Source: Cyanothece sp. BG0011 (lineage in GTDB: Bacteria; Cyanobacteriota; Cyanobacteriia; Cyanobacteriales; Microcystaceae). From it: DNA of 32,000 nt. Below, one piece after another: positions 3,125 to 22,987 of this stretch (within the stretch, counting starts at the first letter, position 1; each line of letters starts with the position of its first letter). Made by a program: the position numbers and the translations under genes. The notes beneath the pieces are model-generated. The model worked only from the letters and a program-made list of their open reading frames with translations. It had not been told where the DNA came from and searched no databases. The stretch lies in the NCBI RefSeq assembly GCF_003013815.1, contig NZ_PRLH01000095.1:23943-55942 (forward strand), read 5' to 3'.

Positions 3125-3336
3125 AGATAAGATGATACTTTTTAATATTTTTCTTGTATTTTACTAATTATAGTTATCTGGCATAGTTTATAATGGACTG
3201 GCTTGAAACATCAATCAAATGAATTATCTTAAGAAATATAAATAAGTTATTAGTTATTAACTCTCTCCCTGCTCCGGCTCTCCCTTCTCCCCTGCTTATC
3301 TCAACTTTAACATTACTTTCCAACCACTAATTATCA

Positions 3337-5997: not shown

Positions 5998-6627
5998 ATG
6001 AATGAAAACACTATCCACTCTCAATATAATAAACTTGCTAAAAACTATGATAAACGCTGGCAAAATTATCATCATAATAGTTTATCCTTTCTGAAAAATT
6101 GGGTAAATATTTCTTCTACTTCTACCATCTTAGACGTGGCTTGTGGGACAGGAATTTTTGCAGAAATGTTACTTCAAGATAATCCTCATTTAGAGATTAT
6201 TGGGGTTGATATTTCCTCAGAAATGTTAACCATAGCTAAGCAGAAATGTCAAGGTTATGATCAAGTTAAGTTCTATCAAAGTTCGGTGACTGCTTTACCC
6301 TTTGAAAGTCATAAGTTTGATTATGTTATTTGTGCCAATGCGTTTCATTATTTTGATAATCCCATCATTGCGTTAATGGAAATGAAGCGACTGGTTAAAC
6401 CCAATGGTCAAATTATAATATTAGATTGGTGTCGAGATTATTTAACCATGAAAATTTGTGACTTAATTTTAAAACTATTTGATCCTAGTCATAAAAATTG
6501 TTATAGTCAAGCAGAATTAAGTCAATTTTTAGCCTCTACAGAATTAACAATTATTGACAATACTAAATTTAGTTTTAGTTGGGTTTGGGGTTTAATGGTA
6601 TTTACAGTAACCCCTAAGTTTTCTTAG
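5998..6627 (+). CDS. Class I SAM-dependent methyltransferase
   Basis: The 209-aa ORF starts 6 nt after the mutS stop. It carries SAM-binding motif I (ILDVACGTGIF) and a Methyltransf_11-like layout (CANAFHYF, LVKPNGQIIILDW). Confidence 0.85.
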   Translation: MNENTIHSQYNKLAKNYDKRWQNYHHNSLSFLKNWVNISSTSTILDVACGTGIFAEMLLQDNPHLEIIGVDISSEMLTIAKQKCQGYDQVKFYQSSVTALPFESHKFDYVICANAFHYFDNPIIALMEMKRLVKPNGQIIILDWCRDYLTMKICDLILKLFDPSHKNCYSQAELSQFLASTELTIIDNTKFSFSWVWGLMVFTVTPKFS

Positions 6628-6819: not shown

Positions 6820-8058
6820 ATGAATTATGAACAATTCTTAAACTTGTATAGTGAGGCGGTTTTAACCTCTTTAAGTTTTTTCTGGAAAGCATTATGGGCA
6901 TTTATTTTAGGTTATATTGTCAGTAGTGCCATTCAAGTTTTTGTAACCCGTGAAAGAATGCAAAAAACCATGGGAAAAGCAGGAAAAAAGAGTATTGCTT
7001 TAGGTACGTTTTTCGGCTTTATTTCAAGTTCTTGTAGCTTTGCTGCGTTAGCAACCACTAAATCTTTATTTAAAAAAGGTGCTGGTTTTATTCCTTCTTT
7101 AGCTTTTTTATTAGCATCAACTAATTTAGTCATTGAATTAGGATTTATTATTGCTATCTTTTTAGGATGGCAATTTGTTGTCGGGGAATATGTAGGGGGT
7201 GTTTTATTAATTCTTTTTACTTGGGAAATTGTCAGATTAACTCGTCCCAAAAAATTAATTAGAAACGTACGAAGAAAATTAAACGACACAGAAGGAGAAG
7301 AAAAAAGCGATACGGATACACCCAACTGGAAAGAAAAAATACAAAGTAAACAAGCATGGAAAAAAGTTGCTAAAAAGTATTTTATGGAATGGGGTATGGT
7401 ATGGAAAGATGTTACCTTTGGTTTTACGATAGCGGGAATTATTGCTGCGTTTGTTCCTCAATCTTTTTTCCAAACCCTGTTTATTAATGCTGGTAATAAT
7501 CCGGGATTTTTCTCCATTTTAGAACATACCATTATCGGTCCAGTGGCAGCCTTTTTTACTTTTATTGGTTCAATGGGAAATATCCCCTTAGCCTCTATTT
7601 TATACAGTAACGGGGTTAGTTTTGCCGGGGTAATGGCTTTTATTTTCAGTGATTTAGTGGTGTTTCCTGTAATACGAGTAAATGCTAAATATTACGGTTG
7701 GAAACTAGCCTTATATATTGTTGCTGTCTTTTTAGGGGCATTAGTAGCAACCTCAATCGTCATGCACTATGGTTTTGCTGCTTTGAATTTACTTCCTGAT
7801 AGTAGTAATAGTCAAAGTGTCGCCCAAACCGAACGATTTGCTATTGATTATACCTTTTGGTTAAATCTCGTGTTTATCGCCATAACAGGATATTTAGCTT
7901 GGTTAAACTTTGGCGGAAAAAGTAAGAAGAAACAACAAGAGCATAGTCATAAAGATAATAGTAATGGTGGTAAAAAAGGAATTATAGAAAAATTAGTTTT
8001 TTGGTTAGCTATTTTTTCTTTTATCTGGTTAGCTGGGGGGTTAATTGCGATGGTTTAG
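6820..8058 (+). CDS. Polytopic permease, DUF318/YraQ/ArsP-like superfamily (tentative)
   Basis: The 412-aa ORF has many hydrophobic segments. The N-terminal region (ALGTFFGFISSSCSFAALA) resembles the CSC-containing helix of the predicted-permease family. It has a Lys/Glu-rich central loop and a His/Lys-rich segment near the C-terminus. Confidence 0.65.
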   Translation: MNYEQFLNLYSEAVLTSLSFFWKALWAFILGYIVSSAIQVFVTRERMQKTMGKAGKKSIALGTFFGFISSSCSFAALATTKSLFKKGAGFIPSLAFLLASTNLVIELGFIIAIFLGWQFVVGEYVGGVLLILFTWEIVRLTRPKKLIRNVRRKLNDTEGEEKSDTDTPNWKEKIQSKQAWKKVAKKYFMEWGMVWKDVTFGFTIAGIIAAFVPQSFFQTLFINAGNNPGFFSILEHTIIGPVAAFFTFIGSMGNIPLASILYSNGVSFAGVMAFIFSDLVVFPVIRVNAKYYGWKLALYIVAVFLGALVATSIVMHYGFAALNLLPDSSNSQSVAQTERFAIDYTFWLNLVFIAITGYLAWLNFGGKSKKKQQEHSHKDNSNGGKKGIIEKLVFWLAIFSFIWLAGGLIAMV

Positions 8059-10097: not shown

Positions 10098-10925
10098 ATG
10101 AAGATGAAAATCTTAGTGAGCATACTTCTGTTAACCCTGGTTTTGTTATTCATCAATGGCTCTAAACCTGACCTAACACAGAGATTATTAATCTCACGGG
10201 AATGTATCGGTTGTGATTTAGAAAATGCAGATTTACAACAGTTAGATTTAGAAGGCGTGAACTTAGAAAAAGCGAATTTGAAACACGCTAATCTCCACGA
10301 AACTAACTTAAATAAAGCCAATCTAAAAAATGCGAATCTACAGCAAACAAGGTTAACAGACGCTCAATTAAAACAAGCGAATCTAACCAAAGCTAATTTA
10401 TTTGAAGCTAATCTATCTAACAGTAATTTAGAAGAAGCTATCTTAAAAGAAGCTAATCTCATCAATACTAATCTCAATAAAAGTATTATAAAAAATGCTA
10501 ACTTATACAAAGCTTTACTAACAGGAAGTAAGCTATCTCATGCCAACTTAGAAGGAGCTAACTTAGAAAAAGCTGATTTATCAACCTATAAAGAATTACC
10601 CACTTTATTAAATCATACTAACCTGAAGAAAGCCAACCTCAAACAAAGTGATTTAGAAGGAGCTTGGTTAGTGAAAGCCCAATTAATAGAAGCTAACTTA
10701 CAACAGAGTAATTTGAAATATGCTAACCTAAAAGGAGCCAATTTAGCCGGTTCAAATTTAAAAGAATCAAAGTCAACTTATGCCATTTTAGACCAAGTCA
10801 ATTTCTGTGGTACAATGATGGAAAACGGAGCCATTTCTTTAAAAGGATGTTCAGTTCAGGGAATATATGATTTCTCCCCTATTAATCATCGCAAGCATTA
10901 CTCTCTTAGTCGCCGTTTCAATTAA
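10098..10925 (+). CDS. Secreted pentapeptide-repeat protein
   Basis: It has an N-terminal signal-like segment (MKMKILVSILLLTLVLLFING), followed by about 200 aa of A(N/D)Lxx repeats such as ANLKHANLHETNLNKANLKNANL. An AGGAGG at 10091-10096 favours the second ATG (10104) as the start. Confidence 0.85.
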   Translation: MKMKILVSILLLTLVLLFINGSKPDLTQRLLISRECIGCDLENADLQQLDLEGVNLEKANLKHANLHETNLNKANLKNANLQQTRLTDAQLKQANLTKANLFEANLSNSNLEEAILKEANLINTNLNKSIIKNANLYKALLTGSKLSHANLEGANLEKADLSTYKELPTLLNHTNLKKANLKQSDLEGAWLVKAQLIEANLQQSNLKYANLKGANLAGSNLKESKSTYAILDQVNFCGTMMENGAISLKGCSVQGIYDFSPINHRKHYSLSRRFN

Positions 10926-11340
10926 CACAATTTTTAAAGGTGATTATGGTTGGTTTAACCGTCTTCGTCGTCCCCAATGGTTAACCTTTGAATGGGCAAT
11001 TCCTTTCATTTGGATATTCGTATTTATTTGTGGGGTTTATTCAGCTTATCAACTTTGGATAAAACAACCAGGAAAAACTGAAACCTGGTTATTAATGGCA
11101 GGGTATTTATTATTAGAAATATTGATCATGGCCTATACCCCTGTTATGTGTAAACTGCGGAGCTTACAAGTAGGAACAATTATCGGTGCAACCGGTTTCT
11201 TTTGGGGGTTAATTCTCGCTGTTTTAGTCTGGCCAATCTCACAAGAATCAGTCTTTTTATTATTACCTTACTTATTATGGAGTCCCATAGGAACTTATGT
11301 TACCTGGGATATGATTTCACTCAATCCTTTAGATAAATAA
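10867..11340 (+). CDS. tspO: TspO/MBR family tryptophan-rich sensory protein
   Basis: The 157-aa ORF has five hydrophobic segments and the family pattern WFNRLRRPQWLTFEWAIPFIWIFVF, with a Trp-rich sequence. It overlaps the upstream gene by 59 nt. Confidence 0.75.
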   Translation: MISPLLIIASITLLVAVSINTIFKGDYGWFNRLRRPQWLTFEWAIPFIWIFVFICGVYSAYQLWIKQPGKTETWLLMAGYLLLEILIMAYTPVMCKLRSLQVGTIIGATGFFWGLILAVLVWPISQESVFLLLPYLLWSPIGTYVTWDMISLNPLDK

Positions 11341-11540
11341 TTAAGAATTAAAAAACTAAGAATTAAGAATTAAAAATTGAGAATTTCCCACTTCTTATAT
11401 AGTCTCATTGGCGGTTCTTTTTGTGTTAAAATAAGAAAGAATAACTTATTTAAAACCATTGACATTAATATTAAGCTTTTTTGTCAATTTTTAAGGCAAT
11501 TGTCCTTTAAACTGTCCCTGTTAACGGAGTTAAGAGACTT

Positions 11541-14129
11541 ATGACCATCCCTCAAGATAGAATTATCCCCACAGACTTGAGTAATGAAATGTCCCGTTCA
11601 TATTTAGAATACGCCATGAGCGTTATTGTGGGACGAGCATTACCCGATGCTAGGGATGGTTTAAAACCTGTGCATCGTCGCATTCTCTACGCCATGTATG
11701 AACTGGGTTTAACTCCCGATCGCCCCTTTAGAAAATGCGCCCGTGTCGTCGGGGAAGTGTTAGGTAAATATCACCCCCACGGCGACACAGCCGTATACGA
11801 TGCCCTAGTTCGGATGGCCCAAGACTTTTCCATGCGGAGTCCTCTGATCGAAGGCCACGGAAACTTTGGATCGGTAGATAACGATCCCCCGGCAGCCATG
11901 CGTTACACGGAATGTCGTCTGCAAGCATTATCAACCAACGCCCTACTCAGAGACATCGAAGCCGACACCGTTGACTTCGCTGATAACTTCGACGGGTCCC
12001 AACAAGAACCCATTGTCTTACCGGCCAGAGTCCCTCAGTTACTCCTCAACGGTTCCTCTGGTATCGCCGTCGGTATGGCCACCAATATTCCTCCCCATAA
12101 CCTCGGAGAATTAATAGACGGAACCATTGCCCTCATTCATAACCCAGAGTTAAGCGAAAAAGAACTCATTAAGATTATCCCCGGGCCAGACTTTCCCACC
12201 GGCGGACAAATCTTAGGGCGATCCGGTATCCACGACGCATACATGACCGGACGGGGTTCGATTACCATGCGCGGTGTGGCCCAAATCGAAACCATCGAAC
12301 AACGGGGCCGGCCCGATCGCGAAGCCATCATTATCACTCAACTTCCCTATCAAACCAACAAAGCAGCCTTAATTGAACGCATCGCCGACTTAGTGAACGA
12401 AAAACGCATTGATGGCATTTCTGACATCAGAGACGAAAGCGATCGCGACGGAATGCGAGTGGTAATAGAACTCAAACGAGACGCTTACCCCAGAGTCGTC
12501 CTCAACAATATCTATAAACAAACCCCCGTACAAGGCAACTTCGGGGCCAATATGTTAGCCCTCGTCAACGGAGAACCCCAACTCCTAACCATAAAAGAGT
12601 TCTTACAGGTTTTCCTTGACTTTAGAGTTGAAACCATCACCCGTCGTACTCAATACGAACTCCGCAAAGCAGAAGAAAGAGATCACCTCTTACAAGGGTT
12701 ACTCATCGCCCTCGATAACCTCGATGCCGTCATTCAACTTATTCGCAGGGCAGCCGATAGCAGCAGCGCAAAAGAAGAATTAGTCCAAGAGTTTGGCCTC
12801 TCCCCAGTTCAAGCAGACGCTATTCTACAAATGCAACTCCGTCGCTTAACCGCCCTAGAAGCAGAGAAAATACACGCCGAACACGAAGAATTACAGCTAA
12901 AAATTGCCGATTTACAAGACATTTTAGCCAGACGGGAACGCATCGAAGCCATTATTGAAGAAGAATTAAGCCAGATCAAGAGCATTCATGCCACCCCTCG
13001 ACGCACCGAAATTGTTCACGATGACGGAGAAATTGTTGATACTGACCTCATTGCCAACGAACAAGCCATTATCCTCCTCACCGAACAAGGTTACATCAAA
13101 CGGATGCCCGTGAGTACCTTTGAGGCACAACAACGGGCCACCAGAGGAAAAGCAGCCGCCAAAATTAAAGACGACGATGTGGTTGAACACTTTTTAACCT
13201 GTTGCGACCACGATCAAGTTCTCTTTTTCAGCGATCGCGGGGTTGTCTATGCCGTGAATGCTTATCAGATCCCATCCTCCTCCAGAACCGCCAGAGGCAT
13301 TCCCATCGTTCAAATGTTACCCATCCCCAAGGATGAGAAAATAACCTCCATCGTCGCCGTTAGTGAGTTCACAGAAGACGTTTTTCTCGTGATGTTAACT
13401 CATAAAGGTTACATCAAAAAAACCGCCCTTTCCGCCTTTAGTAATATTCGGACCAATGGGTTAATTGCCATTTCCCTCGGTGAAGGGGACCAACTGCGAT
13501 GGGTAAGACTCACCAGAGAAGAAGATAGTATTATCCTCGGAACCCGTAAAGGGATGGCGATCCATTTCCACGCCGATCACCAACAACTGCGACCCCTGGG
13601 ACGGGCAACTAGAGGCGTAAAAGCCATGAAATTGAAGAAAGGGGACGAATTAATTAGTATGGATGTGTTGCCGGCACAAGTCACCGCAGGGATAGGGGAT
13701 GCAGCCGAAGACGAAGACGTTTTAGAGAATGAAACTGAAGAGTTAAGCGAAGAAGAAACCACCGGTGGCCCTTGGATCTTAGCTATTACTAATGGGGGTT
13801 ATGGTAAACGGGTTCCTATTTCCCAGTTTCGTCTGCAACGACGGGCCGGAATGGGGGTTCGGGCGATCAAGTTTAAGTCAAAAACCGATTGTTTAGCCTC
13901 CCTTCATGTGGTCAATGCAGAGGATGAATTAATGATTGTGTCTAACCGAGGGATTATTATTCGTCAAGCTGTCGATGCTATTTCTATGCAGTCTCGCGCT
14001 GCTACCGGGGTTCGAGTACAACGGTTAGATAGTGATGATGCGATCGCAGCCGTTGCATTAGTTCCCCCGGCACCTGAAACCGACGAAGAAGAGGGGGAAG
14101 CAGAAGCAGTCGAAGTGGTTAGTGAGTAA
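11541..14129 (+). CDS. gyrA: DNA gyrase subunit A
   Basis: The 862-aa ORF has the [19 protein letters not shown] motif, [19 protein letters not shown], and the catalytic AAMRYTE tyrosine motif. A GyrA-box-like sequence ([12 protein letters not shown]) opens the C-terminal domain, and the protein has an acidic tail. Confidence 0.97.
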
Positions 14130-15434: not shown

Positions 15435-16427
15435 TCAACGATGAACTTTCCCATCTGGCATCGTTGCACCCCGTAAAATAACACCCGCCAAGTTAGCACT
15501 CATTAACTCTGCCCTGGTTAAATTAGCATTACTCATATTAGCCCCCATGAGATTTGCCCGTGCAAAAAATGCCTCTACTAAGTCAGCATCCGTTAAATTC
15601 GCCCCTGATAAATTTGCCCGACTTAAATCAGCGTGGTTCATCCGTGTTAACGTTAAATTGGCTTGATGAAGATTAGCACGGTTGAACACAGCGTGCGTCA
15701 TGATTGCCCCTCTAGCCATGACATCACTCAACTCCGCTTGAGATAATTGCGCCCTAACTAGATTCGTGTTGGTAAGATTTGCCCCGTTTAACTTTGCCCC
15801 GGTTAGGTTAGTATCTGTCAGTAACGCCCCTTTGAGGTTAGCATTAGTTAAGTCTGCTTTGCGTAAATCAGCATCCCTCAAATTCACTTCTTTGAGATTG
15901 GCCCCCACTAAATTAGCCCGACTCAAATCAACCCCCTTCATATTAGCCCCTTGTAAGTCTGCCCTAGCTAAATTAGCAGCTTGGAGGTTAGTATAGTAAC
16001 TCTTCTTTTCTTGGCGCATATTTGCCCCTCTCAGACAAGCACCGGTAAGGGTTGCCCCACTTAAATCTGCTCCTCGTAGATCAGCCGCGATTAAGTTGGC
16101 ATCGAGAAAAGTCGCTAAGGTAATATCCGTATCCCTTAAATTCGCTCCTTGTAGTAACGTTCCATGAAGGGTAGCATTACGTAAATCTGCCCCACTGAGG
16201 TCCGCTTGAGAGAAATTAGCCCCACTTAAATTCGCTCCCACCAGATTCGCCTGGGTTAAATTAGCGCGGTTAAAATAGGAGAACAAAAGATTAGCCCCAT
16301 GTAAGTCTGCTTCATTAAGGGTAATGCCGATTAAATCTGCCCCTAACAAGTTAATTCCTGGCAGTTTTAAGCCATTAAATAAGGTTTCTCCGGCAGAATA
16401 ACGCTCAATTAGTTCACTGGGTTTCAT
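15435..16427 (-). CDS. Pentapeptide-repeat protein, cytoplasmic type with no signal peptide
   Basis: The 330-aa ORF consists almost entirely of A(D/N)LxG repeats, for example ANLSGANFSQADLSGADLRNATLHGTLLQGANLRDTDI. Confidence 0.9.
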   Translation of the reverse strand: MKPSELIERYSAGETLFNGLKLPGINLLGADLIGITLNEADLHGANLLFSYFNRANLTQANLVGANLSGANFSQADLSGADLRNATLHGTLLQGANLRDTDITLATFLDANLIAADLRGADLSGATLTGACLRGANMRQEKKSYYTNLQAANLARADLQGANMKGVDLSRANLVGANLKEVNLRDADLRKADLTNANLKGALLTDTNLTGAKLNGANLTNTNLVRAQLSQAELSDVMARGAIMTHAVFNRANLHQANLTLTRMNHADLSRANLSGANLTDADLVEAFFARANLMGANMSNANLTRAELMSANLAGVILRGATMPDGKVHR

Positions 16428-16448: not shown

Positions 16449-17594
16449 TTATACAAAAGGTTTTATGGCTTCAACGACGGTACTGGCAGTTTGCAGATGA
16501 GAATCGGGATCATTAAGAGATTTGGCCATGTTGTAGAGTTTTCCTTCAATCTCGGTAATCGAACGACCACTCTGAAGAATCTGCTCTAGAAGATCATCGA
16601 GGGTATAACTTCTCAAGGTTGACCAATCTTGTCCACTACGATCCCAAGGATGAAAGAGTAGGGAGAATAGCAATATTTTAGCGCGTAATGGATTGGTATA
16701 TTGCATAATTTCTAAGCGAATCTCAAAAATATCATACTTAGGTTTAGCAGGAGAGGGCGCTGGAGTGGCTTGTACCTGTTTTAACTCAGTTACCATCTGT
16801 TCTGAGGTGATATCAATCACAGAGGTTTCAAAGGCTGAAGCCGGAGAGGGTTGCATATTTTGATAGTTGTCACTACTATTAATGGAAATAATTTGGGTAC
16901 TGTAGCTATTAGAACTGTCAGAAGAGAGCATATCTTCTTGTTGTAAATTATCGTATAAGCCACCCATTTGATTGAGAATCACTTTAGCAATGGCAAGATA
17001 TAAATTCTTTTTATTAATATTGTTAACTAATTGGATAAAGGCTTGTTTAAGGGCATTATAATCTGGATAAATTTCTAGGGTTTCCATGATTAAGTTGTTT
17101 AACCCATAATTTTTAATTCGGTTTAAATCATTTTCCCAACTGTTTTTAGTAATAGCATAAATTAATTTATGAATTCTAGCGGTTTCAGGATGATTGGATA
17201 AATTTCTCACTGCTTGTTCTATGAGAACACTACTATCAGAAACCTGAGTTTCTTTCGGATTAGTTGGCACTTCGATGACTTCGGTTTCTCGATGGAGTTC
17301 CCGATAAATCGGTCCTAGTTGTTCAACGATCGCTTTAGCCACACCAGCATACACTTTAGGACGGTTTAGAGTTTTGACTAATCTATATAAGGAAAGGGTC
17401 AGTTGTTCAAGGGTTTCTTGTTGCGTAATCAGTTCTTTAACTAAACTTTCCATCGACAAGCGATTGAGAACATTGAGATCGTTTTGCCAGGTTTTTTGAC
17501 AAATACAAAAGATTAATTTTTTGACTCTGATAGATTCGGGATGGTGTTCAAGATAGTGAACCGCTTGGTAAAATAAATCAGATGATAATTGCAT
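16449..17594 (-). CDS. Hypothetical protein built from three copies of an uncharacterised helical domain of about 90 aa
   Basis: The ORF is 381 aa. Residues 8-97 and 125-214 align without gaps at an offset of 117 (QAV..L..HPE..R..KLI......W.NDLN...LV..N....Y..AK.I..Q.G..Y). Residues about 289-381 form a divergent third copy. The gene ends 21 nt before the pentapeptide gene start. Confidence 0.7.
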   Translation of the reverse strand: MQLSSDLFYQAVHYLEHHPESIRVKKLIFCICQKTWQNDLNVLNRLSMESLVKELITQQETLEQLTLSLYRLVKTLNRPKVYAGVAKAIVEQLGPIYRELHRETEVIEVPTNPKETQVSDSSVLIEQAVRNLSNHPETARIHKLIYAITKNSWENDLNRIKNYGLNNLIMETLEIYPDYNALKQAFIQLVNNINKKNLYLAIAKVILNQMGGLYDNLQQEDMLSSDSSNSYSTQIISINSSDNYQNMQPSPASAFETSVIDITSEQMVTELKQVQATPAPSPAKPKYDIFEIRLEIMQYTNPLRAKILLFSLLFHPWDRSGQDWSTLRSYTLDDLLEQILQSGRSITEIEGKLYNMAKSLNDPDSHLQTASTVVEAIKPFV

Positions 17595-18036
17595 AATTAC
17601 CCCTTAAATAGAAAAAAATACTGATGTTAAGTTGTCAGTGGATAGGTTAAAGTTTATCTTTATCTCAAACAAAAATAATTGACACTTCATTGTCTATAAT
17701 ACTGTCTATCCTTAAGTTAGAAAACAAACCATAGGCAATAGTTACACTCTATCGCTTAACTCAGAATCAGTAGAACCCAACGTTGCTTGTTTGGGCTACC
17801 AGAAAGGGGGGATCGAGGCGTAAAGTATACTATTTTAAAATTTTTTAGAAGAAATAACAACTTAAAACCTTATTTAAGCCTTAATTTCTTATTGATACTT
17901 CTTCATTTATCATTTATCTACTATTTTCTTTTTCCTATGCCCCGATTTCTCCCCCTACCCAGTGCGCCGCGATCGACTGAGGTTATCATTCGGTTATGTT
18001 TGGGTTATGCTATAGTAACCAAGACTTGAAAAATAT

Positions 18037-18046
18037 TTCATATGAA
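18037..18046. promoter_or_regulatory. 10-bp perfect palindrome TTCATATGAA; candidate ArsR/SmtB-type operator
   Basis: Read directly from the sequence. It ends 23 nt upstream of the ArsR-family start codon, and TTCA/TGAA half-sites recall SmtB/ArsR-family operators. An AT-rich palindrome this short could occur by chance. Confidence 0.3.
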
Positions 18047-18069
18047 TAGATTTTGAAAATTTACCAACC

Positions 18070-18363
18070 ATGATGAATGAATCAAAAAGTTGCGCCGATA
18101 AACTCAAAATATTAGCAGATACCACTCGGTTATCTGTTCTGAGAATTCTGATGGAAGGGTCTAAGCACGTGGGCGAAATTAATGATGTTTTAGGATTAGA
18201 ACAGAGTTTACTGTCCCATCATTTAAAAATTTTACGCCAAGCAGGGTTGGTTACAACAACCAGAGATGGTAAATCCGTTCTTTATCATTTTGTGCCAACA
18301 ATTCGACAAAAGGGAGTAACTAACGTCATTGATTTAGGCTGCTGTCTTCTCTCCTTTGAATAA
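18070..18363 (+). CDS. ArsR/SmtB family transcriptional regulator
   Basis: The 97-aa ORF has a winged-helix core: LKILADTTRLSVLRILMEGSKHVGEINDVLGLEQSLLSHHLKILRQAGLVTTTRDGKSVLYHF. The canonical ELCVCDL site is replaced by SKHVGEI. The cysteines are Cys8 and a vicinal Cys91-Cys92 near the C-terminus. Confidence 0.9.
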   Translation: MMNESKSCADKLKILADTTRLSVLRILMEGSKHVGEINDVLGLEQSLLSHHLKILRQAGLVTTTRDGKSVLYHFVPTIRQKGVTNVIDLGCCLLSFE

Positions 18364-18382
18364 GAATCAGAAAAATAATAGA

Positions 18383-19237
18383 ATGAAAAAAATCAAAAAA
18401 ATTCCCTTACTTGGACTGATTTTAACTCTGAGTTTAGGGATACAAAATTGTAGCCAATCTTCCCCAAAAACTAGCCAAACCAGCAATGAATTACAGGGAA
18501 AATTAATCTTAACTGGTTCGAGTACCGTCGCCCCTTTAGCCGCAGAAATAGGAAAACGATTTGAATCAGAGCATCCTGATGTACGAGTGGACGTACAAAC
18601 AGGGGGATCATCCCGTGGCATTGCCGATGCACGCACAGGGGTCGCAAATATTGGCATGGTATCCCGTCGCCTCAAAGAACAAGAAAAAGACCTACAATCA
18701 TTTGCGATCGCTCGTGATGGCATTGGTATTATTGTTAATCAAGATAATTCCGTCAACAGCTTATCCAATCAACAGATTATCGACATTTACACAGGAAAAC
18801 TGAATAATTGGCAACCCATTAATGGCAAAGATGCACCGATTACAGTGGTTAATAAAGCAGAAGGACGATCTACCTTAGAACTATTTCTAGAATACTTTCA
18901 ACTTGATAATAAAGACATTAACCCATCGGTGGTCATCGGCGATAATCAACAGGGGATTAAAACAGTAGCCGGCAACCCAAACGCCATGGGTTATGTCTCC
19001 ATTGGGACGGCTGAATATAGTATCAATAATGGGGTTCCCATCAAATTATTACCCCTTAATGGGGTGGCAGCCACCACAGAGAATATACAAAATGAAACCT
19101 TTCCTTTATCTCGTCCTTTAAACCTAGTCACCACAACCCAACCGAAAAGATTAGATCAAGCATTTATCGAGTTTGCCCAATCATCTCAAGTTCATGATAT
19201 TGTTCAACAACAAGATTTTGTCCCCGTCTCAAAATGA
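18383..19237 (+). CDS. pstS: Phosphate ABC transporter substrate-binding protein (PstS family)
   Basis: It has a signal peptide with a Cys (MKKIKKIPLLGLILTLSLGIQNC). PstS-family motifs are present: LTGSSTVAPLA, QTGGSSRGIADA, GMVSRRLK and RDGIGIIVN. The track starts at a TTG (18356), so I prefer the ATG at 18383. Confidence 0.9.
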   Translation: MKKIKKIPLLGLILTLSLGIQNCSQSSPKTSQTSNELQGKLILTGSSTVAPLAAEIGKRFESEHPDVRVDVQTGGSSRGIADARTGVANIGMVSRRLKEQEKDLQSFAIARDGIGIIVNQDNSVNSLSNQQIIDIYTGKLNNWQPINGKDAPITVVNKAEGRSTLELFLEYFQLDNKDINPSVVIGDNQQGIKTVAGNPNAMGYVSIGTAEYSINNGVPIKLLPLNGVAATTENIQNETFPLSRPLNLVTTTQPKRLDQAFIEFAQSSQVHDIVQQQDFVPVSK

Positions 19238-20072
19238 TATCGTTTTTCTGTGGATTTTAAGATTATTAGCCTTAATCACAGGGATGATTGTCATTTTAAT
19301 TACTAGCTTCTTATTGCTCGAAGCATTACCCCTGCTACAACAAGTCGGATGGTTAAGGTTTGTCAGAGATCAAGCTTGGCACCCCGTTCAAGGACTCTAT
19401 AATTTAATGCCGATGTTGTGGGGAACCCTGTTAGTCACCTTGGGTTCTGTGCTGTTGGCCACCCCTTTAGGCATCGGTTCAGCCCTATTTTGTCAATATT
19501 ATGCCCCTCCATTCATAGGGAAAGGATATCGAGCCTTAATCGAGTTATTAGCCGGTATTCCCTCGGTGGTTTATGGGTTTTGGGGTTTAGTGGTGCTGGT
19601 GCCACTGATTGGCAAATGGCAACCCCCCGGCACTAGCTTATTAGCAGGAATTATTATTTTGACATTAATGATTTTGCCTACCATCGCCTTGACAGCAGAA
19701 GCCAGTTTTGCTGAAGTGCCGACAGAATATGTGCAAGGGGCGGCGGCTTTGGGACTTTCTCACTGGGCAACCATCCGAGGGGTTATTATACCGGCTGCCC
19801 AATCGGGTTTAGTGACAGGTTTAATTTTAGCAACAGGACGAGCAATAGGAGAAACCATGGCCGTGTTGATGGTGTGTGGCAATGTGGTACAAACCCCTAA
19901 GAGCTTATTTGACCCTGTTCGCACTTTGACGGCCAATATTGCCTTAGAGATGGCTTATGCCCTGGGAAATCATCGCTCAGCCTTGTTTGTTACTGGTTTA
20001 TTACTGATGATGCTGATTACTTTATTAATAGGGATTGCTGAAGGGATGAGTTGGAGCAAAGATTATGGGTAA
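19173..20072 (+). CDS. pstC: Phosphate ABC transporter permease PstC
   Basis: The protein has six TM segments and a permease EAA-type loop (EVPTEYVQGAAALGLSHWATIRGVIIPAA), with PstC-like motifs (ELLAGIPSVVYGFWGL, GRAIGETMAV). The start is uncertain: ATG 19173, ATG 19194 and TTG 19218 are all in frame and all overlap the pstS 3' end. Confidence 0.88.
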   Translation: MPNHLKFMILFNNKILSPSQNDIVFLWILRLLALITGMIVILITSFLLLEALPLLQQVGWLRFVRDQAWHPVQGLYNLMPMLWGTLLVTLGSVLLATPLGIGSALFCQYYAPPFIGKGYRALIELLAGIPSVVYGFWGLVVLVPLIGKWQPPGTSLLAGIIILTLMILPTIALTAEASFAEVPTEYVQGAAALGLSHWATIRGVIIPAAQSGLVTGLILATGRAIGETMAVLMVCGNVVQTPKSLFDPVRTLTANIALEMAYALGNHRSALFVTGLLLMMLITLLIGIAEGMSWSKDYG

Positions 20073-20157
20073 ACTCACATCTTGCACCAGCATAAATAAA
20101 CTCAATAGAAAAACAAAAACAATGAATTCTAAGACAGTTAGAGTCAAAATAAACCTT

Positions 20158-20178
20158 TACACCCTACACCCTACACCC
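20158..20178. repeat. Tandem heptamer (TACACCC)x3
   Basis: Read directly from the sequence. It lies inside the 133-nt pstC-pstA spacer and contains CACCCTAC, the reverse complement of the GTAGGGTG core of the hairpin repeat family. Confidence 0.75.
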
Positions 20179-20205
20179 TTTCACTACTAGCCAATTTAAA
20201 ACAAG

Positions 20206-21060
20206 ATGCAAGATATGAGTAAACCTGCCAATCTTCAAATCAATTTACCCAGTCTTGTGGTTTGGGCGATCGCTTTGTTGATAACTGGGGCATTTGGTTG
20301 GATTTTAGGGGATATTCTTTGGCATGGAATCGGACAACTCTCTTGGGAATTTTTAACAACCGAACCTCGAAATGCAGGACGGGAGGGAGGGATTGCCCCG
20401 ATTCTGGTGTCTACGGCCTTAATCTTAGGGGTTTGCCTAGTCGTAGCCCTTCCCCTGGGGGTTGGTACGGCCATGTTCTTAGCTGAATTTACCCAGACTG
20501 AAAATCGCTTTGGCCGTTTAGTGGGTCGCAGTTTAGATATTTTAGCCGGAGTCCCCTCGATCGTGTTTGGTTTGTTTGGTAATGCTTTTTTTGCCATTCA
20601 ACTGGGATTAGGGTTTTCCATTTTGTCTGGGGGTTTGACCTTAGCTTGTATGGTATTACCCATTCTCATTCGCTCCACAGAAGCAGGATTTCGGGCGGTT
20701 CCCACTGACTATCGATTAGGGGCGGCAGCTTTGGGATTATCTCGAACCACGACTCTATGGAAATTATTATTACCGGCAGCGACACCAGGGTTAATGGTGG
20801 GTTTAGTGTTGGGCATTGGTCGAGCGATCGCAGAGACAGCGGCCTTGATTTTTACCAGTGGTTATGTAGATAGGATGCCAGGGTCATTATTGGATTCGGG
20901 GCGATCGCTTTCGATTCATATTTTTGATTTATCTATGAATGTGCCAGGGGGAGATGGGAATGCCTATGCTTCTGCGTTGGTGTTATTGATTTTATTGTTG
21001 CTGATCAATGGTACAGCTACCTGGATCGCACAATTTTGGTTAGCCAGGAGGTTTATATGA
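20206..21060 (+). CDS. pstA: Phosphate ABC transporter permease PstA
   Basis: The 284-aa polytopic ORF has the PstA pattern: W.FLTTEPRNAGREGGI, LAGVPSIVFGLFG, the EAA loop AVPTDYRLGAAALGLSRTTTLWKLLLPAA, and GRAIAETAAL. Confidence 0.9.
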   Translation: MQDMSKPANLQINLPSLVVWAIALLITGAFGWILGDILWHGIGQLSWEFLTTEPRNAGREGGIAPILVSTALILGVCLVVALPLGVGTAMFLAEFTQTENRFGRLVGRSLDILAGVPSIVFGLFGNAFFAIQLGLGFSILSGGLTLACMVLPILIRSTEAGFRAVPTDYRLGAAALGLSRTTTLWKLLLPAATPGLMVGLVLGIGRAIAETAALIFTSGYVDRMPGSLLDSGRSLSIHIFDLSMNVPGGDGNAYASALVLLILLLLINGTATWIAQFWLARRFI

Positions 21061-21842
21061 GAGAAAATCGGCCATCTTTACCTTCAATGCAAACAGAGCA
21101 ACTGAGCTTATCTTACGGTAACAAAGTCGCTTTTACGGACATCACCTTGCCCATTGAAGCCGGAAAAATTACTGCTTTGGTAGGGCCGTCTGGCTGTGGA
21201 AAGAGTAGTTTTTTGAGTTGTTTAAATCGTCTCACTGATTTGATCCCCAATACTAAAGTGTCGGGGAGCATTCGCTTAGATTCCCTAGAAATTTTAGATA
21301 ATACCCTAGATTTAATCGCCCTACGACGGCGAGTCGGGACGATTTTTCAAAAACCCAATCCGTTTCCCTTTTCCATTTGGAAAAATTTAGCCTTTCCGTT
21401 ACAAGAACACGGCATCAAAAACCGTGAGCAACTCGATAGCATCATTGAAACCACCCTGAAAGAGGTGGGACTGTGGAACGAAGTCAAAGATCGACTTAAA
21501 ACCTCTGCCTTATCCTTATCTGGGGGACAAAAGCAACGGTTGTGTATGGCTCGTGCTTTGGTGTTGCAACCGGAAGTCTTACTATTAGATGAACCTTGTA
21601 GCGCACTCGATCCCATTGCCAGTGGGGTGGTAGAGGATTTAATTGCCAGTTTGCGAGGGCATTATACGGTGGTGATTGTCACCCATAACCTAGCACAAGC
21701 CAGACGAATGGGTGACTATGCTGCTCTGTTTTGGGTACAAGAAGCAGTCGGTCAACTCATTGAGTATGGAACCATCGAACAAATTTTCTTAGATCCTCGA
21801 CACCCTTTAACCACTGCCTATGTGAATGGGGTTCGAGGGTAG
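21057..21842 (+). CDS. pstB: Phosphate ABC transporter ATP-binding protein PstB
   Basis: Walker A is GPSGCGKSS, the signature is LSGGQKQRLCMARA, Walker B is LLLDEPCSALDP and the H-loop is VTHN. An AGGAGG at 21046-21051 sits 5 nt before the ATG at 21057. That ATG overlaps the pstA TGA as ATGA. The track's upstream start (21036) is unlikely. Confidence 0.92.
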   Translation: MRENRPSLPSMQTEQLSLSYGNKVAFTDITLPIEAGKITALVGPSGCGKSSFLSCLNRLTDLIPNTKVSGSIRLDSLEILDNTLDLIALRRRVGTIFQKPNPFPFSIWKNLAFPLQEHGIKNREQLDSIIETTLKEVGLWNEVKDRLKTSALSLSGGQKQRLCMARALVLQPEVLLLDEPCSALDPIASGVVEDLIASLRGHYTVVIVTHNLAQARRMGDYAALFWVQEAVGQLIEYGTIEQIFLDPRHPLTTAYVNGVRG

Positions 21843-21907: not shown

Positions 21908-22987
21908 ATGGGTAACTATCATTCTGATCAACCGATTCAACCTGAGTTTGAGCCACACTTAGGGGATATCGACCCCCGCACCACAGAAACCCTTAACCCT
22001 GACATTGTTATCGACTCAAACCAAAATGAAACCGAAGAATCATCAGAAATTGCAGAAATTTCTATTGTCGAAGAAGCTGATCTTCCTTTGACCCATGACT
22101 GGTTTAACTTGGCTCGTAAATTACGGGGACAAAATCGAGAACTCCTCGATACCATTGTCACCCTAGAACAAGCTTTGGCTGAGTCACGACAACAACTGCA
22201 AGACTATCAAGAGCGATCGCGTCATCATAACGCTTTGCTATCCCAGCAAACCGCCCAACTTCAAAGCACCCAAGCCGAAAATAGTCATCTCCTCGAACAA
22301 CTACAAACCTCTCAAACTTGTCTACAACAACAGCAACTGAACCTAGACGCACTACAACAACAATTACAAGCCTCTCAAGAAGCCTTCGCTCAGTTAGAAC
22401 GAGAATGTGCCTTACTCAAAGAGGAAACCCTACAAAATAAACATCAGTTAGTTCTCAAAGAAAGACACATTAACGAGTTACAGCAACGCCTACAACGACA
22501 ACAACGCTACAGTTTACAGTACAAAGCCGCCTTAGATGAATGTTTGAGTAGTCATGGAAAAAAACGACCATCAGCCCAAGTTAACTCTACGGTTGAGCGT
22601 CCAACGGCTCCTAATGTGGTTTCTATTCAACCTTGGTCTGATTCTCCAGACAAGAAAATAGTGCCTAGTCTTACCCCTTCTTCTGTGGCATCAGAAGCCT
22701 CAAAACCGACCTCTGATGCCATTGATGACACTTTAGAAGAGTTATTTTCCCTCACCCCTGAACCCAAACCAGAGCCGACTCCGACGGATGAGCAAACCAT
22801 AACCGAGGAACCCACTCCCATGGATAGCCAAGAAAATAGTAGCCTTGAGGATCAGACGGCTACTTCTTCAAAGGGTTTATTAATGAGTAGTTCGGTGCCT
22901 TTTAGTTTCAGTATTGACCGTCATCGTAAAGAAGATGCTGCTAGGGAAAAGGTGGATTTACCTTCTTTTCTTCGTCGTCAATCTTAA
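21908..22987 (+). CDS. Q-rich coiled-coil protein with an acidic N-terminus, a P/T/E/S-rich linker and a C-terminal DLPSFLRR peptide
   Basis: The 359-aa ORF has about 150 aa of heptad-like Q/L/E sequence (LEQALAESRQQLQDYQERS...LQQQLQASQEAFAQLERECALLKEE). This is followed by a low-complexity linker and the terminal sequence KVDLPSFLRRQS. Confidence 0.7.
   Translation: MGNYHSDQPIQPEFEPHLGDIDPRTTETLNPDIVIDSNQNETEESSEIAEISIVEEADLPLTHDWFNLARKLRGQNRELLDTIVTLEQALAESRQQLQDYQERSRHHNALLSQQTAQLQSTQAENSHLLEQLQTSQTCLQQQQLNLDALQQQLQASQEAFAQLERECALLKEETLQNKHQLVLKERHINELQQRLQRQQRYSLQYKAALDECLSSHGKKRPSAQVNSTVERPTAPNVVSIQPWSDSPDKKIVPSLTPSSVASEASKPTSDAIDDTLEELFSLTPEPKPEPTPTDEQTITEEPTPMDSQENSSLEDQTATSSKGLLMSSSVPFSFSIDRHRKEDAAREKVDLPSFLRRQS

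What the first reader, a model, noticed from the sequence alone, without database searches (positions are those of the whole stretch)
18037..21842. Complete pstSCAB phosphate transporter placed directly behind an ArsR-family regulator that has an atypical C-terminal Cys-Cys site
The unit runs on one strand: arsR-like (18070-18363), a 19-nt gap, pstS (18383), pstC overlapping the pstS 3' end, pstA, and pstB coupled to pstA by an ATGA overlap. A palindrome (TTCATATGAA) ends 23 nt upstream of the regulator start codon.

Pst operons are normally controlled by the PhoR-PhoB/SphS-SphR system, not by an ArsR/SmtB repressor.

The regulator lacks the classical ELCVCDL metalloid site (it has SKHVGEI there) and has no alpha-5 His/Asp metal site. 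It does carry a vicinal Cys91-Cys92 six residues from the C-terminus, plus Cys8. This recalls the C-terminal As(III) site described for Acidithiobacillus ArsR.

Arsenate enters cells through phosphate transporters. My hypothesis is that this is an arsenic- or thiol-reactive-inducible auxiliary Pst system that maintains selective phosphate uptake under arsenate stress.

The binding protein also has GRST where PstS-family proteins commonly show GSGT (ITVVNKAEGRSTLELF), which may bear on anion selectivity.
Basis: partly seen in the sequence, partly recalled or inferred. Interest (0 to 1): 0.65.

Follow-up and report, generated by a model that had tools for sequence, protein, structure and literature searches.

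The report
Arsenic-regulator-controlled variant phosphate transporter operon
A cyanobacterium carries an intact five-gene unit in which an arsenic-type repressor sits directly in front of a variant phosphate-type ABC importer; the same unit recurs in many genomes, often next to arsenic-methylation and arsenosugar genes, which points to an arsenic-triggered uptake system.

Summary
arsR-like (18070-18363), pstS, pstC, pstA and pstB lie on one strand, with the 19-nt gap and the ATGA overlap as described.

- **Recurrence.** I verified the adjacency in 13 genome or plasmid loci. It also holds in 34 of 80 metagenome loci. 60 of those 80 carry a marker seen in arsenic gene clusters within 6 kb: the same regulator, ArsM, ArsS or a VTT-flavoreductase fusion.
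- **Regulator.** It belongs to a clade with a conserved Cys8 and vicinal Cys91-Cys92. No alpha-5 helix is predicted. It matches none of the described ArsR arsenic sites.
- **Operator.** This motif occurs once per locus, always just upstream of this regulator.
- **Binding protein.** It belongs to a large clade with a near-invariant K-x3-R-S-T motif in place of R-x3-S-G-T. It lacks the Asp linked to high arsenate discrimination.

Most likely reading: a trivalent-arsenical-responsive autorepressor controls an auxiliary Pst-type importer. ArsR-controlled pst is already proven in Agrobacterium tumefaciens, so this is a new variant of a known kind. Substrate and selectivity are untested.

The parts
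18027..18056 (.). Predicted operator: two tandem TGAA-N6-TTCA-type boxes, box 1 at 18027-18040 (TGAAAAATATTTCA) and box 2 at 18043-18056 (TGAATAGATTTTGA). Together they form an imperfect 30-bp palindrome.
   Evidence: The motif is conserved upstream of the regulator in every close orthologous locus. A weight matrix hits once per locus, always just upstream of the regulator, including 11 loci not used to build it, and nowhere else in the window. In 632 kb of metagenome loci there were 22 hits, all 9-255 nt upstream of this type of arsR. No shuffle out of 100 reproduced the pattern. The palindrome was also found (I4).
18037..18046 (.). It is the junction between the two operator boxes.
   Evidence: In most orthologues the sequence is TTCATATCAA, which is not palindromic.
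18026..18031 (+). Possible -35 hexamer TTGAAA overlapping box 1. This is inferred; no convincing -10 was found by the scan.
   Evidence: Read from the sequence. CTTGAA is shared by several orthologues. The promoter scan gave no hit here.
18070..18363 (+). ArsR/SmtB-family regulator, 97 aa. Cys8 is encoded at 18091-18093 and Cys91-Cys92 at 18340-18345.
   Evidence: C8 and C92 are invariant and C91 is present in at least 90% of 61 homologues. The AlphaFold2 model has pLDDT 84, helices 2-15, 18-28, 34-41 and 45-57, a wing at 61-74, and no alpha-5. The fold matches the ArsR/SmtB core only.
18383..19237 (+). PstS-like substrate-binding protein, 284 aa, with a signal peptide and a conserved Cys23 (probable lipoprotein). 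It is S-type with a variant anion pocket.
   Evidence: Clade conservation is shown. Pocket mapping onto C. perfringens PBP-1 uses and PMC5381212.
18851..18886 (+). Codons for N157-K-A-E-G-R162-S-T-L-E-L-F168, the clade-defining replacement of S-R-E-D-G-S-G-T-R-D-A-F.
   Evidence: The K..RST pattern is present in 70 of 80 metagenome loci.
19194..20072 (+). PstC permease, 292 aa. An alternative TTG start lies at 19173. It contains GRAIGETM (aa 215-222), the equivalent of E. coli PstC Arg237.
   Evidence: and PMC12976172.
20159..20179 (.). Three tandem copies of ACACCCT inside the 133-nt pstC-pstA gap. Several orthologues have overlapping pstC and pstA instead.
20206..21060 (+). PstA permease, 284 aa. 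It contains GRAIAETA (aa 205-212), the equivalent of E. coli PstA Arg220.
21036..21842 (+). PstB ATPase. The start is either TTG 21036 (268 aa, the orthologue length) or ATG 21057 (261 aa, ATGA overlap with the pstA stop). The Walker A motif is encoded at 21183-21206.

Best explanation
This is a self-contained, autoregulated five-gene operon. I infer the following sequence of events.

1. The ArsR-family repressor binds, probably as two dimers, to two tandem TGAA-N6-TTCA boxes (18027-18056) that overlap its own promoter.
2. A trivalent arsenical, As(III) or methylarsenite, is bound by the thiols of Cys91-Cys92 together with Cys8. Cys8 may come from the same or the partner subunit.
3. The repressor leaves the DNA, and arsR-pstS-pstC-pstA-pstB is transcribed as one message.
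4. The products form a Pst-type ABC importer whose binding protein has a re-arranged anion pocket: Lys158 and Arg162 instead of a single Arg, and Ser163 instead of Gly.
5. The most likely role is phosphate uptake that is switched on by intracellular arsenic rather than by phosphate starvation. This would keep phosphate supplied, and indirectly limit arsenate entry, when the ordinary Pho-controlled transporters are compromised.

**Shown here:** gene order and integrity; conservation of the module, of the cysteines, of the operator and of the pocket variant; the association with arsenic genes.

**Inferred:** operator binding, the arsenical effector, co-transcription, and phosphate as the substrate.
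For: **Module conservation**
- The same order occurs in Cyanosarcina, Anabaena, Limnofasciculus, Coleofasciculaceae and a planctomycete.
- It also occurs in Nostoc carneum and Chondrocystis, Symploca, Nodularia and Moorena, and on two cyanobacterial plasmids.
- 34 of 80 metagenome loci have it. pstC follows pstS in 60 of the 60 loci with enough downstream sequence.

**Arsenic link**
- Regulator relatives lie beside ArsS (TIGR04167, 433 bits), arsenosugar ArsM (NF038099, 580 bits), other ArsM-like genes and MIP channels.
- The orders arsM-arsS-arsR-pstSCAB and arsM-arsR-arsS-pstSCAB both occur.

**Operator**
-.
- From my own knowledge, TGAA-N6-TTCA is the core of SmtB/CzrA-type 12-2-12 operators.

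**Cysteines:** conserved across the family.

**No separate signal between arsR and pstS.** The gap is 19 nt and no terminator was predicted there. The promoter scan did give one consensus match, 18356-18384 (9 of 12), spanning the arsR stop. A transcript from it would start after the pstS start codon, so I treat it as spurious.

**Transport path is phosphate-type.** The PstC and PstA arginines that set phosphate specificity in E. coli are conserved (PMC12976172). Six of nine phosphate ligands of C. perfringens PBP-1 are kept or conservatively replaced (PMC5381212).

**Precedent and rationale**
- ArsR1 represses an As(III)-inducible second pst locus in A. tumefaciens (PMC7965956).
- Canonical pst genes are repressed by arsenic in Synechocystis (PMC4010505).
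- My inference: arsenic-induced phosphate uptake gives a negative feedback loop, whereas arsenic-induced arsenate uptake would give a runaway positive loop.
Against: - There are no expression, binding or transport data for any member of the module.
- The binding protein is S-type and lacks the Asp low-barrier hydrogen bond. The only S-type protein tested discriminates arsenate only about 150-fold (PMC5381212). Nothing known predicts high selectivity.
- Three of nine phosphate ligands are changed in a strictly conserved way (R to K, S to R, G to S), and Arg78 and Arg111 are added. This could signal a different ligand.
- The tight coupling to arsM and arsS is not obviously explained by phosphate supply.
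- PstS and PstB fall slightly below the NCBIfam cut-offs.
- The cysteine arrangement matches no experimentally defined arsenic site (PMC11868830).
- About half of the related pst loci lack an adjacent arsR and lack the operator.
- A two-repeat Pho-box-like match lies 183 nt upstream, at 17869-17887.
- The closest sequenced relative, C. subtropica ATCC 51142, has let the pst genes decay, so the function is dispensable there.
Confidence: 0.55

Rival explanations
1. The regulatory circuit is the same, but the transporter is not primarily a phosphate importer. In this reading the K-x3-R-S-T binding protein has been retuned to another oxyanion, such as arsenate, a methylated arsenic oxyanion, or another phosphorus or arsenic species. 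The system would then feed, or belong to, the arsM/arsS arsenic-organification pathway.
For: - The pocket changes are strictly conserved across a very large clade.
- The clade sits directly beside arsM, arsS and a VTT-flavoprotein reductase fusion in many loci, sometimes with no arsR between them (arsM-pstSCAB, arsS-pstS, VTT_FDR-pstSCAB).
- In Pseudanabaena the same gene families cluster with arsM and arsS.
- S-type binding proteins discriminate arsenate poorly (PMC5381212).
Against: - The substitutions add bulk and positive charge rather than room or hydrophobic contacts for a larger or methylated anion.
- The PstC and PstA specificity arginines are unchanged.
- Arsenical-induced arsenic import would be a self-amplifying loop (my inference).
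- No known benefit of importing arsenic has been established.
Confidence: 0.2
2. The regulator senses a different thiol-reactive signal, not arsenic. Candidates are persulfide or sulfite (as for BigR and SqrR), oxidants (as for HlyU), or soft metals such as Cd or Pb (as for CmtR). The adjacency to arsenic genes would then be secondary.
For: - Structural neighbours include HlyU, SqrR and BigR.
- There are weak NCBIfam hits to BigR, CmtR and SdpR.
- The cysteine arrangement is unlike any proven arsenic site (PMC11868830).
- More distant clade members have no recognisable arsenic neighbours.
Against: - All those family scores are far below cut-off: BigR 54 against 155, CmtR 46 against 150, SdpR 61 against 100.
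- The cysteines are not at the BigR/SqrR positions.
- Neighbours of close relatives are specifically ArsS, ArsM and aquaglyceroporin-type channels.
- A vicinal Cys pair plus a third Cys is the chemistry expected for three-coordinate As(III).
Confidence: 0.12
3. This is an ordinary phosphate-starvation (SphS-SphR) Pst operon, and an unrelated regulator gene happens to lie upstream.
For: - A Pho-box-like pair of repeats with one mismatch lies at 17869-17887.
- The genes are annotated simply as phosphate ABC transporter components in public records.
Against: - The adjacency is conserved across cyanobacterial orders, other phyla and plasmids.
- The gap is 19 nt, or the genes overlap, in many loci.
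- The Pho-like match has only two repeats. It lies in a 209-bp segment that is absent from the nearest relative.
- The binding protein forms its own clade, always with this context.
Confidence: 0.05

Closest known systems
ArsR1-repressed pstS1C1A1B1-phoU1-phoB1 locus next to the ars1 locus of Agrobacterium tumefaciens 5A (Kang et al. 2012, 2016; Rawle et al. 2021, PMC7965956), and more generally the pst1 operons in proteobacterial arsenic islands (PMC3834237)
   Same: Both are a second Pst system under an ArsR repressor. The Agrobacterium locus is induced by As(III) independently of phosphate and is distinct from the true Pho-regulated pst locus. The proposed purpose is the same: phosphate acquisition under arsenic stress.
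   Different: - In Agrobacterium the regulator belongs to a separate ars operon, and the pst locus carries its own phoB and phoU. Here arsR is the first gene of the pst operon, and no phoU or phoB is present.
- The regulator class differs (Cys8 plus Cys91/92, no alpha-5).
- The operator differs.
- The binding-protein clade differs (S-type, K-x3-R-S-T).
- Here the link is to arsM and arsS rather than to aio genes.
Cyanobacterial ars clusters of the type arsR-pstS(sphX-like)-gap3-arsJ-acr3-arsH, for example Nodularia spumigena nsp33490-33550 (PMC3610870, PMC9846622; noted in the review PMC4284471)
   Same: An ArsR gene lies immediately upstream of a PstS-family gene in cyanobacteria. The authors proposed co-regulation by arsenic.
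   Different: Those clusters have a lone binding protein followed by efflux and detoxification genes, with no pstCAB. In the clade studied here, pstC followed pstS in 60 of 60 informative loci. I did not test whether the lone PstS belongs to the same clade.
AfArsR (type 2 site: Cys95, Cys96, Cys102) and SpArsR (Cys101, Cys102; methylarsenite-selective), as summarised in PMC11868830
   Same: All have a vicinal Cys pair near the C-terminus, at a similar linear distance after the wing. HMMER aligns query residues 9-80 with 6J05 residues 11-86.
   Different: - There is no third C-terminal Cys; the conserved third Cys is at the start of helix 1.
- The predicted C-terminus is a loop plus two short strands rather than an alpha-5 helix.
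- The tail was not matched in the structure search.
S-type phosphate-binding proteins: C. perfringens PBP-1 (4Q8R/4GD5, PMC5381212) and Synechocystis SphX and Sll0540 (PMC13614923)
   Same: These are the best sequence matches among solved structures. All have Ser in place of the low-barrier-hydrogen-bond Asp. The Ser/Thr ligands at positions 46-48, 76, 94 and 164 are conserved.
   Different: The single charge-balancing Arg (PBP-1 Arg125) is Lys158 here. Ser129 is replaced by Arg162 and Gly130 by Ser163. Arg78 and Arg111 are clade-specific additions.
SmtB/CzrA-type 12-2-12 operators (from my own knowledge)
   Same: They share the TGAA-N6-TTCA inverted-repeat core, overlap the promoter, and are autoregulatory.
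   Different: Here two boxes are fused head to tail with a 2-bp spacer into one 30-bp palindrome. Binding has not been tested.

Membership tests
ArsR/SmtB family of winged-helix repressors | HTH_5 / metalloregulator profile above the curated cut-off, and the alpha1-alpha4 plus wing fold | tested here: met
   PF01022 scores 55.3 against 22, and NF033788 scores 81.7 against 55. The AlphaFold2 model and Foldseek hits to HlyU, SmtB, CzrA, SqrR and ArsR structures give TM about 0.7.
Type 1 ArsR (R773 / E. coli) | Cys32-x-Cys34-x2-Cys37 (ELCVCDL) in the DNA-binding helix region | tested here: not met
   There is no Cys between residues 9 and 90; the region reads EGSKHVGEIN. NF007528 scores 38.3 against a cut-off of 97.
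Type 2 ArsR (AfArsR) | Three Cys (95, 96, 102) at the end of the alpha-5 dimerisation helix | tested here: not met
   The vicinal pair is present (C91, C92), but there is no third C-terminal Cys, and no alpha-5 is predicted. The site definition is from PMC11868830.
Type 3 ArsR (CgArsR) | Cys15-Cys16 in the N-terminal arm plus Cys55 of the partner subunit | tested here: not met
   The alignment to 6J0E shows no Cys at those positions. The only N-terminal Cys is a single Cys8.
MAs(III)-selective ArsR (SpArsR) | Only the two vicinal C-terminal Cys, with a response to methylarsenite and not arsenite | tested here: inconclusive
   The vicinal pair is present, but a third conserved Cys (C8) also exists. 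One relative (L016) lacks C8. Effector specificity cannot be tested with these tools.
Persulfide/sulfite sensors BigR/SqrR, and CmtR | Equivalog profile score and the characteristic Cys pair positions | tested here: not met
   BigR NF040642 scores 54.3 against 155, and CmtR NF047906 scores 45.7 against 150.
PstSCAB phosphate ABC transporter | PstC and PstA permease equivalogs with the specificity arginines (E. coli PstC R237, PstA R220) | tested here: met
   TIGR02138 scores 253.1 against 196.45, and TIGR00974 scores 240.2 against 193.45. GRAIGETM and GRAIAETA align with R237 and R220 (PMC12976172).
PstSCAB phosphate ABC transporter | PstB ATPase equivalog | tested here: inconclusive
   TIGR00972 scores 325.9 against a cut-off of 343.2. 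It is the best hit by far, and the Walker A and signature motifs are present.
PstS phosphate-binding protein (TIGR02136 / S-type) | Profile above cut-off and the nine phosphate ligands of PBP-1 (S11, T12, S13, S41, S59, R125, S129, G130, T131) | tested here: inconclusive
   The score is 196.9 against a cut-off of 206.6. Six of nine ligand positions are kept or conservatively changed. R125 becomes K158, S129 becomes R162, and G130 becomes S163 (PMC5381212).
D-type high-affinity PstS (E. coli PstS, Synechocystis PstS1) | Asp forming the low-barrier hydrogen bond that underlies arsenate discrimination | tested here: not met
   Ser94 occupies that position, invariant in the clade. TIGR00975 scores 45.8 against 205. 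The D/S classification is from PMC13614923.
Pho regulon (SphS-SphR controlled) | A Pho box of three or more 8-bp PyTTAAPyPy(T/A) repeats at 11-bp spacing upstream | tested here: inconclusive
   There is one two-repeat match with one mismatch at 17869-17887 and no third repeat. It lies in a segment absent from the nearest relative. The Pho-box consensus is from my own knowledge.

The most novel reading that the evidence does not exclude
The K-x3-R-S-T Pst system may not be a phosphate back-up at all. It could be an integral, previously unrecognised component of an arsenic-organification pathway made up of arsM, arsS, a VTT/TVP38 membrane protein, a MerA-like flavoprotein reductase, and a Cys8/Cys91-92 ArsR. 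In that reading its binding protein is tuned to an arsenic oxyanion or another non-phosphate ligand, and it is controlled by a fifth structural class of arsenical-sensing ArsR.
Probability: 0.17. Interest if true: 0.85.

Novelty: new variant of a known kind. Interest (0 to 1): 0.6.

Why it matters
Arsenate enters cells through phosphate transporters, so how cells keep taking up phosphate under arsenic stress is a central question in arsenic biology.

An arsenic-switched Pst system is proven only in Agrobacterium. This work shows a distinct, compact version that is widespread in cyanobacteria and present in several other phyla. It has three features of its own:
- a repressor class with its own cysteine arrangement;
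- a defined operator;
- a binding-protein clade with a rearranged anion pocket.

It is repeatedly embedded in arsenosugar (arsM/arsS) gene clusters.

Possible uses:
- concrete reagents for testing what sets phosphate/arsenate selectivity in S-type binding proteins;
- a candidate new arsenic-sensing site for biosensors;
- possibly the missing transport and accessory components of arsenosugar and arsenolipid biosynthesis;
- more precise annotation, because these genes are currently labelled only as generic phosphate transporter and ArsR-family genes.

Tried and rejected
- **Other arsenic genes in the window.** I looked for further arsenic genes and for a second operator copy. I found only a generic ArsP_1-family permease with a SAM methyltransferase 11 kb upstream. 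There was no second operator.
- **RNA elements.** Rfam and tRNA scans of the window found nothing.
- **Promoter and terminator scan.** It gave no convincing -35/-10 pair at the operator. A promoter-like hit at 18356-18384 would start transcription inside pstS, so I treated it as spurious.
- **Distant regulator relatives.** Neighbours in Sphingomonadales, Verrucomicrobia and Pirellulales gave no informative arsenic links. The exception is a pstSCAB-arsR order in L017.
- **Second operator in wide gaps.** I looked in the 150-216-nt arsR-pstS gaps of arsM-arsS-arsR-pstSCAB loci and upstream of arsM. None was found.
- **Metagenome scan.** The first alignment was too diverse for the scan. A narrower one worked.
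- **Literature.** Searches for this module, for arsenosugar genes with phosphate transporters, or for cyanobacterial arsenic transcriptomes mentioning it returned nothing specific.
- **Pocket geometry and cysteine distances.** I did not try to examine them, because model coordinates are not exposed by the tools.
- **Horizontal transfer by composition.** I considered and rejected this as uninformative: operon GC is 43.3% against 39.9% for the window.

Full report
**1. Observation**

The ORF list and sequence confirm the layout.
- The ArsR-like gene is at 18070-18363 (97 aa).
- After 19 nt comes pstS at 18383-19237 (284 aa).
- pstC most plausibly starts at ATG 19194. That gives a 44-nt overlap with pstS, the same overlap as in the Nostoc carneum and Chondrocystis orthologues. 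It ends at 20072.
- pstA lies at 20206-21060, after a 133-nt gap.
- pstB ends at 21842.
- ATG 21057 overlaps the pstA stop as ATGA. An upstream TTG at 21036 would give the 268-aa length of orthologues, so the pstB start is ambiguous.

Profile searches place the regulator in the ArsR/SmtB family and put PstC and PstA above their equivalog cut-offs. PstB (325.9 against 343.2) and PstS (TIGR02136, 196.9 against 206.6) fall just below theirs. The system is Pst-like but divergent.

The regulator has exactly three cysteines: C8, C91 and C92. The closest public protein is the ArsR-family regulator of Crocosphaera subtropica ATCC 51142, at 90% identity. The window therefore comes from a close relative of that strain; the DNA is 86-95% identical over shared segments.

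**2. The regulator is one member of a well-defined clade**

Sixty-one homologues at 59-90% identity keep C8 and C92 invariantly and C91 in at least 90%, within a C-terminal (D/N)LGCC-L-F motif. The motif persists down to about 39% identity in Verrucomicrobia, Pirellulales and Sphingomonadales.

An AlphaFold2 model (pLDDT 84) shows helices 2-15, 18-28, 34-41 and 45-57 and a wing at 61-74. It shows no alpha-5 helix. The tail forms a low-confidence loop and two short strands, with G-C-C at the turn.

Foldseek matches only the roughly 75-residue ArsR/SmtB core, with hits to HlyU, SmtB, CzrA, SqrR, CgArsR and AfArsR.

The experimentally defined arsenical sites, as listed in PMC11868830, are:
- R773: C32/C34/C37
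- AfArsR: C95/C96/C102
- CgArsR: C15/C16/C55'
- SpArsR: C101/C102
- ArArsR: C41/C80/C82

The C8 plus C91/C92 arrangement corresponds to none of them. It shares the vicinal C-terminal pair with the Af and Sp types. Scores for BigR, CmtR and SdpR are far below cut-off.

**3. The palindrome is part of a larger conserved operator**

I aligned the 160 nt upstream of the regulator in 17 loci. This revealed the pattern (C/T)(T/A)TGAA-N6-TTCATAT(C/G)AAT-N6-ATTCA. It consists of two TGAA-N6-TTCA boxes separated by 2 bp, which together form an imperfect 30-bp palindrome. In the window this is 18027-18056.

In most orthologues it reads TTCATATCAA.

Evidence that the motif is specific:
- A weight matrix built from 11 instances hits exactly once per locus, always immediately upstream of the regulator. 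That includes 11 loci not used for training. It hits nowhere else in the 32-kb window.
- In 632 kb of independent metagenome loci it gave 22 hits of at least 18 bits. All were 9-255 nt upstream of a regulator of this type. None were in loci lacking the regulator.
- The composite pattern never arose in 100 shuffles. The bare 10-mer arose in 9 of 100.

From my own knowledge, TGAA-N6-TTCA is the core of SmtB/CzrA-type 12-2-12 operators. Autoregulatory binding is therefore the natural inference, but it has not been demonstrated.

**4. The arsR-pstSCAB linkage recurs**

Direct inspection shows the same order in:
- Cyanosarcina, Anabaena UHCC 0204, two Coleofasciculaceae, Limnofasciculus and a planctomycete;
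- Nostoc carneum NIES-2107 and Chondrocystis NIES-4102;
- Symploca;
- a Nodularia and Moorena bouillonii;
- plasmids of Nostoc edaphicum (pstC interrupted by IS630) and Pseudanabaena galeata.

Eighteen further regulator/PstS pairs have identical longest-contig lengths in the two protein searches, which suggests they lie on the same contig.

A metagenome scan with a PstS alignment returned 80 loci:
- 34 have this regulator directly upstream.
- pstC follows pstS in 60 of the 60 loci with enough downstream DNA.
- The K...R-S-T motif is present in 70 of 80.

**5. The link to arsenic**

Relatives of the regulator that are not followed by pst genes sit next to the following:
- ArsS, the arsenosugar radical-SAM enzyme (TIGR04167, 433 bits);
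- arsenosugar-type ArsM (NF038099, 580 bits);
- other ArsM-like methyltransferases;
- MIP channels.

The pst module itself is often fused to these genes. The gene orders observed are:
- arsM-arsS-arsR-pstSCAB (Symploca, Moorena, L003, L005, L092, L096, L103);
- arsM-arsR-arsS-pstSCAB (L126, L137, L159);
- arsM-pstSCAB;
- arsS-pstS;
- pstSCAB-arsM.

In 13 loci the neighbour is a fusion of a VTT/TVP38 domain with a pyridine-nucleotide disulfide oxidoreductase. On the Pseudanabaena plasmid, separate TVP38 and 'mercuric reductase' genes lie between arsM and arsS.

Overall, 60 of 80 metagenome loci carry at least one of these markers within 6 kb. Among loci with at least 1 kb of upstream DNA the figure is 47 of 57. 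I did not compare this with the rate around canonical pstS genes.

**6. The binding protein**

The best solved relatives are S-type phosphate-binding proteins.

I mapped the nine phosphate ligands of C. perfringens PBP-1 (PMC5381212) through the HMMER alignment:

| PBP-1 ligand | Window residue | Status |
|---|---|---|
| S11 | S46 | kept |
| T12 | S47 | conservative |
| S13 | T48 | conservative |
| S41 | S76 | kept |
| S59 | S94 | kept |
| R125 | K158 | changed |
| S129 | R162 | changed |
| G130 | S163 | changed |
| T131 | T164 | kept |

These residues, plus R78 and R111, are invariant or nearly so in the 120 closest homologues. An exhaustive search of 50%-identity representatives shows K-x2-G-R-[S/A/G]-T in about 60 of 150 clusters, against 34 with the canonical R-x2-[GS]-S-G-T. 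This is therefore a large subfamily and not a local oddity.

The protein has Ser where D-type proteins have the Asp of the low-barrier hydrogen bond. Elias and co-workers linked that bond to arsenate discrimination. The one S-type protein measured discriminates only about 150-fold (PMC5381212). Synechocystis SphX has lower phosphate affinity than PstS1 (PMC13614923).

Known determinants therefore do not predict high selectivity. The relocated arginine may be a different solution to the same problem, or it may signal a different ligand.

The membrane path looks phosphate-type. The arginines equivalent to E. coli PstC R237 and PstA R220 are conserved (PMC12976172).

**7. Mechanism I commit to**

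I propose a trivalent-arsenical-responsive autorepressor, bound at the tandem boxes, that controls one arsR-pstSCAB transcript. That transcript encodes an auxiliary Pst-type importer, most likely for phosphate.

Support for co-transcription:
- The gap is 19 nt, or the genes overlap, in many orthologues.
- No terminator was predicted in the gap.
- The one promoter-like match at the junction (18356-18384) would start transcription after the pstS start codon, so I discount it.

Support for the physiological logic:
- In A. tumefaciens 5A the second pst/pho locus is As(III)-induced, repressed by ArsR1 and insensitive to phosphate (PMC7965956).
- In Synechocystis, which was not seen among the carriers here, the canonical pst operons are repressed by arsenic (PMC4010505). 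An arsenic-induced alternative would fill that gap.
- Arsenic-induced phosphate uptake forms a negative feedback loop, whereas arsenic-induced arsenic uptake would not. This is my inference.

Remaining doubts:
- the substrate;
- the effector;
- a weak two-repeat Pho-box-like match at 17869-17887. It lies in a 209-bp segment bounded by 11-nt direct repeats and absent from C. subtropica.

**8. Comparison and novelty**

The concept is known. Proteobacterial arsenic islands carry ArsR-controlled pst genes (PMC3834237, PMC7965956). ArsR next to a lone PstS has been noted in cyanobacterial ars clusters (PMC4284471, PMC3610870).

What I could not find described is this compact operon with:
- its own regulator class;
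- the tandem-box operator;
- the K-x3-R-S-T binding-protein clade;
- its embedding in arsM/arsS/VTT-reductase neighbourhoods.

Public records label the genes only generically. I therefore rate it a new variant of a known kind. A minority possibility is that the transporter is a genuine component of arsenic organification.

**9. Side observation on dispensability**

In C. subtropica ATCC 51142 the regulator and operator are intact. Two deletions, corresponding to window 18955-19272 and 19513-21112, have removed the 3' part of pstS, most of pstC, all of pstA and the 5' end of pstB.

The module also occurs on plasmids and is interrupted by insertion sequences (also L085). This marks it as accessory and frequently lost.

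Noticed in passing
L081 (C. subtropica ATCC 51142, CP000806.1) 10287-11851, compared with window 18383-21842: The nearest sequenced relative keeps the regulator and operator. It has lost window 18955-19272 and 19513-21112, which leaves a 200-aa PstS fragment, a 77-aa ORF and a truncated PstB. Downstream synteny also ends at window position 21879.
   Followed up: yes
window 17769-17975; direct repeats at 17788-17798 and 17997-18007: A segment of about 209 bp upstream of the operator is absent from C. subtropica. It is bounded by 11-nt direct repeats (TGTTTGGGCTA / TGTTTGGGTTA). This suggests either insertion of a small element or deletion between repeats. The segment contains the only Pho-box-like match near the operon (17869-17887).
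   Followed up: partly
window 20159-20179: Three tandem ACACCCT heptamers lie in a 133-nt pstC-pstA spacer. Several orthologues have overlapping pstC and pstA instead.
   Followed up: no
window 5998-6627 and 6820-8058: A small SAM-dependent methyltransferase (generic UbiE/Methyltransf_11 type, with weak ArsM-like hits) is followed by an ArsP_1-family (PF03773) permease, 11 kb upstream of the operon. No copy of the operator is nearby. Any relation to arsenic is unknown.
   Followed up: partly
L123:3746-5893, also L128, L129, L148; L090 (Pseudanabaena plasmid) 1-5095: A 715-847-aa fusion of a VTT/TVP38 membrane domain with a MerA-like pyridine-nucleotide disulfide oxidoreductase lies directly upstream of the variant pstS in 13 metagenome loci. 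On the Pseudanabaena plasmid the same two families are separate genes interleaved with arsM and arsS. They may be uncharacterised members of the arsenosugar gene neighbourhood.
   Followed up: partly
L010, L012, L013, L015: A more divergent branch of the regulator (54-58% identity, with an N-terminal extension and a C-terminal ECC/KCC/GCC motif) is transcribed divergently from a kinase-like gene followed by ABC-transporter genes. In three of the four loci (L010, L012, L013) a single CATGAA-N6-TTTTCATATG box overlaps the regulator's start codon; in L015 a related box lies further upstream.
   Followed up: no
L017 (Sphingomonadales MAG) 53-3523: An alphaproteobacterial contig has the reverse order, pstS...pstB followed by a regulator that ends in DLGCCRLDFS. 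This suggests the association extends beyond cyanobacteria in another arrangement.
   Followed up: no
L089 (Nostoc edaphicum plasmid pNe_5) 10130-12060; L085 12212-12808: Insertion-sequence damage occurs in other copies of the module. An IS630 transposase interrupts pstC on the Nostoc plasmid. In Symploca a Y1 transposase sits where pstB would be.
   Followed up: no
window 15435-16427 and 10098-10925; 16449-17594; 21908-22987: Two pentapeptide-repeat proteins lie in the window. Two conserved proteins without family matches flank the operon: a 381-aa protein on the minus strand upstream, and a 359-aa coiled-coil-like protein downstream. The upstream one is syntenic with C. subtropica.
   Followed up: no
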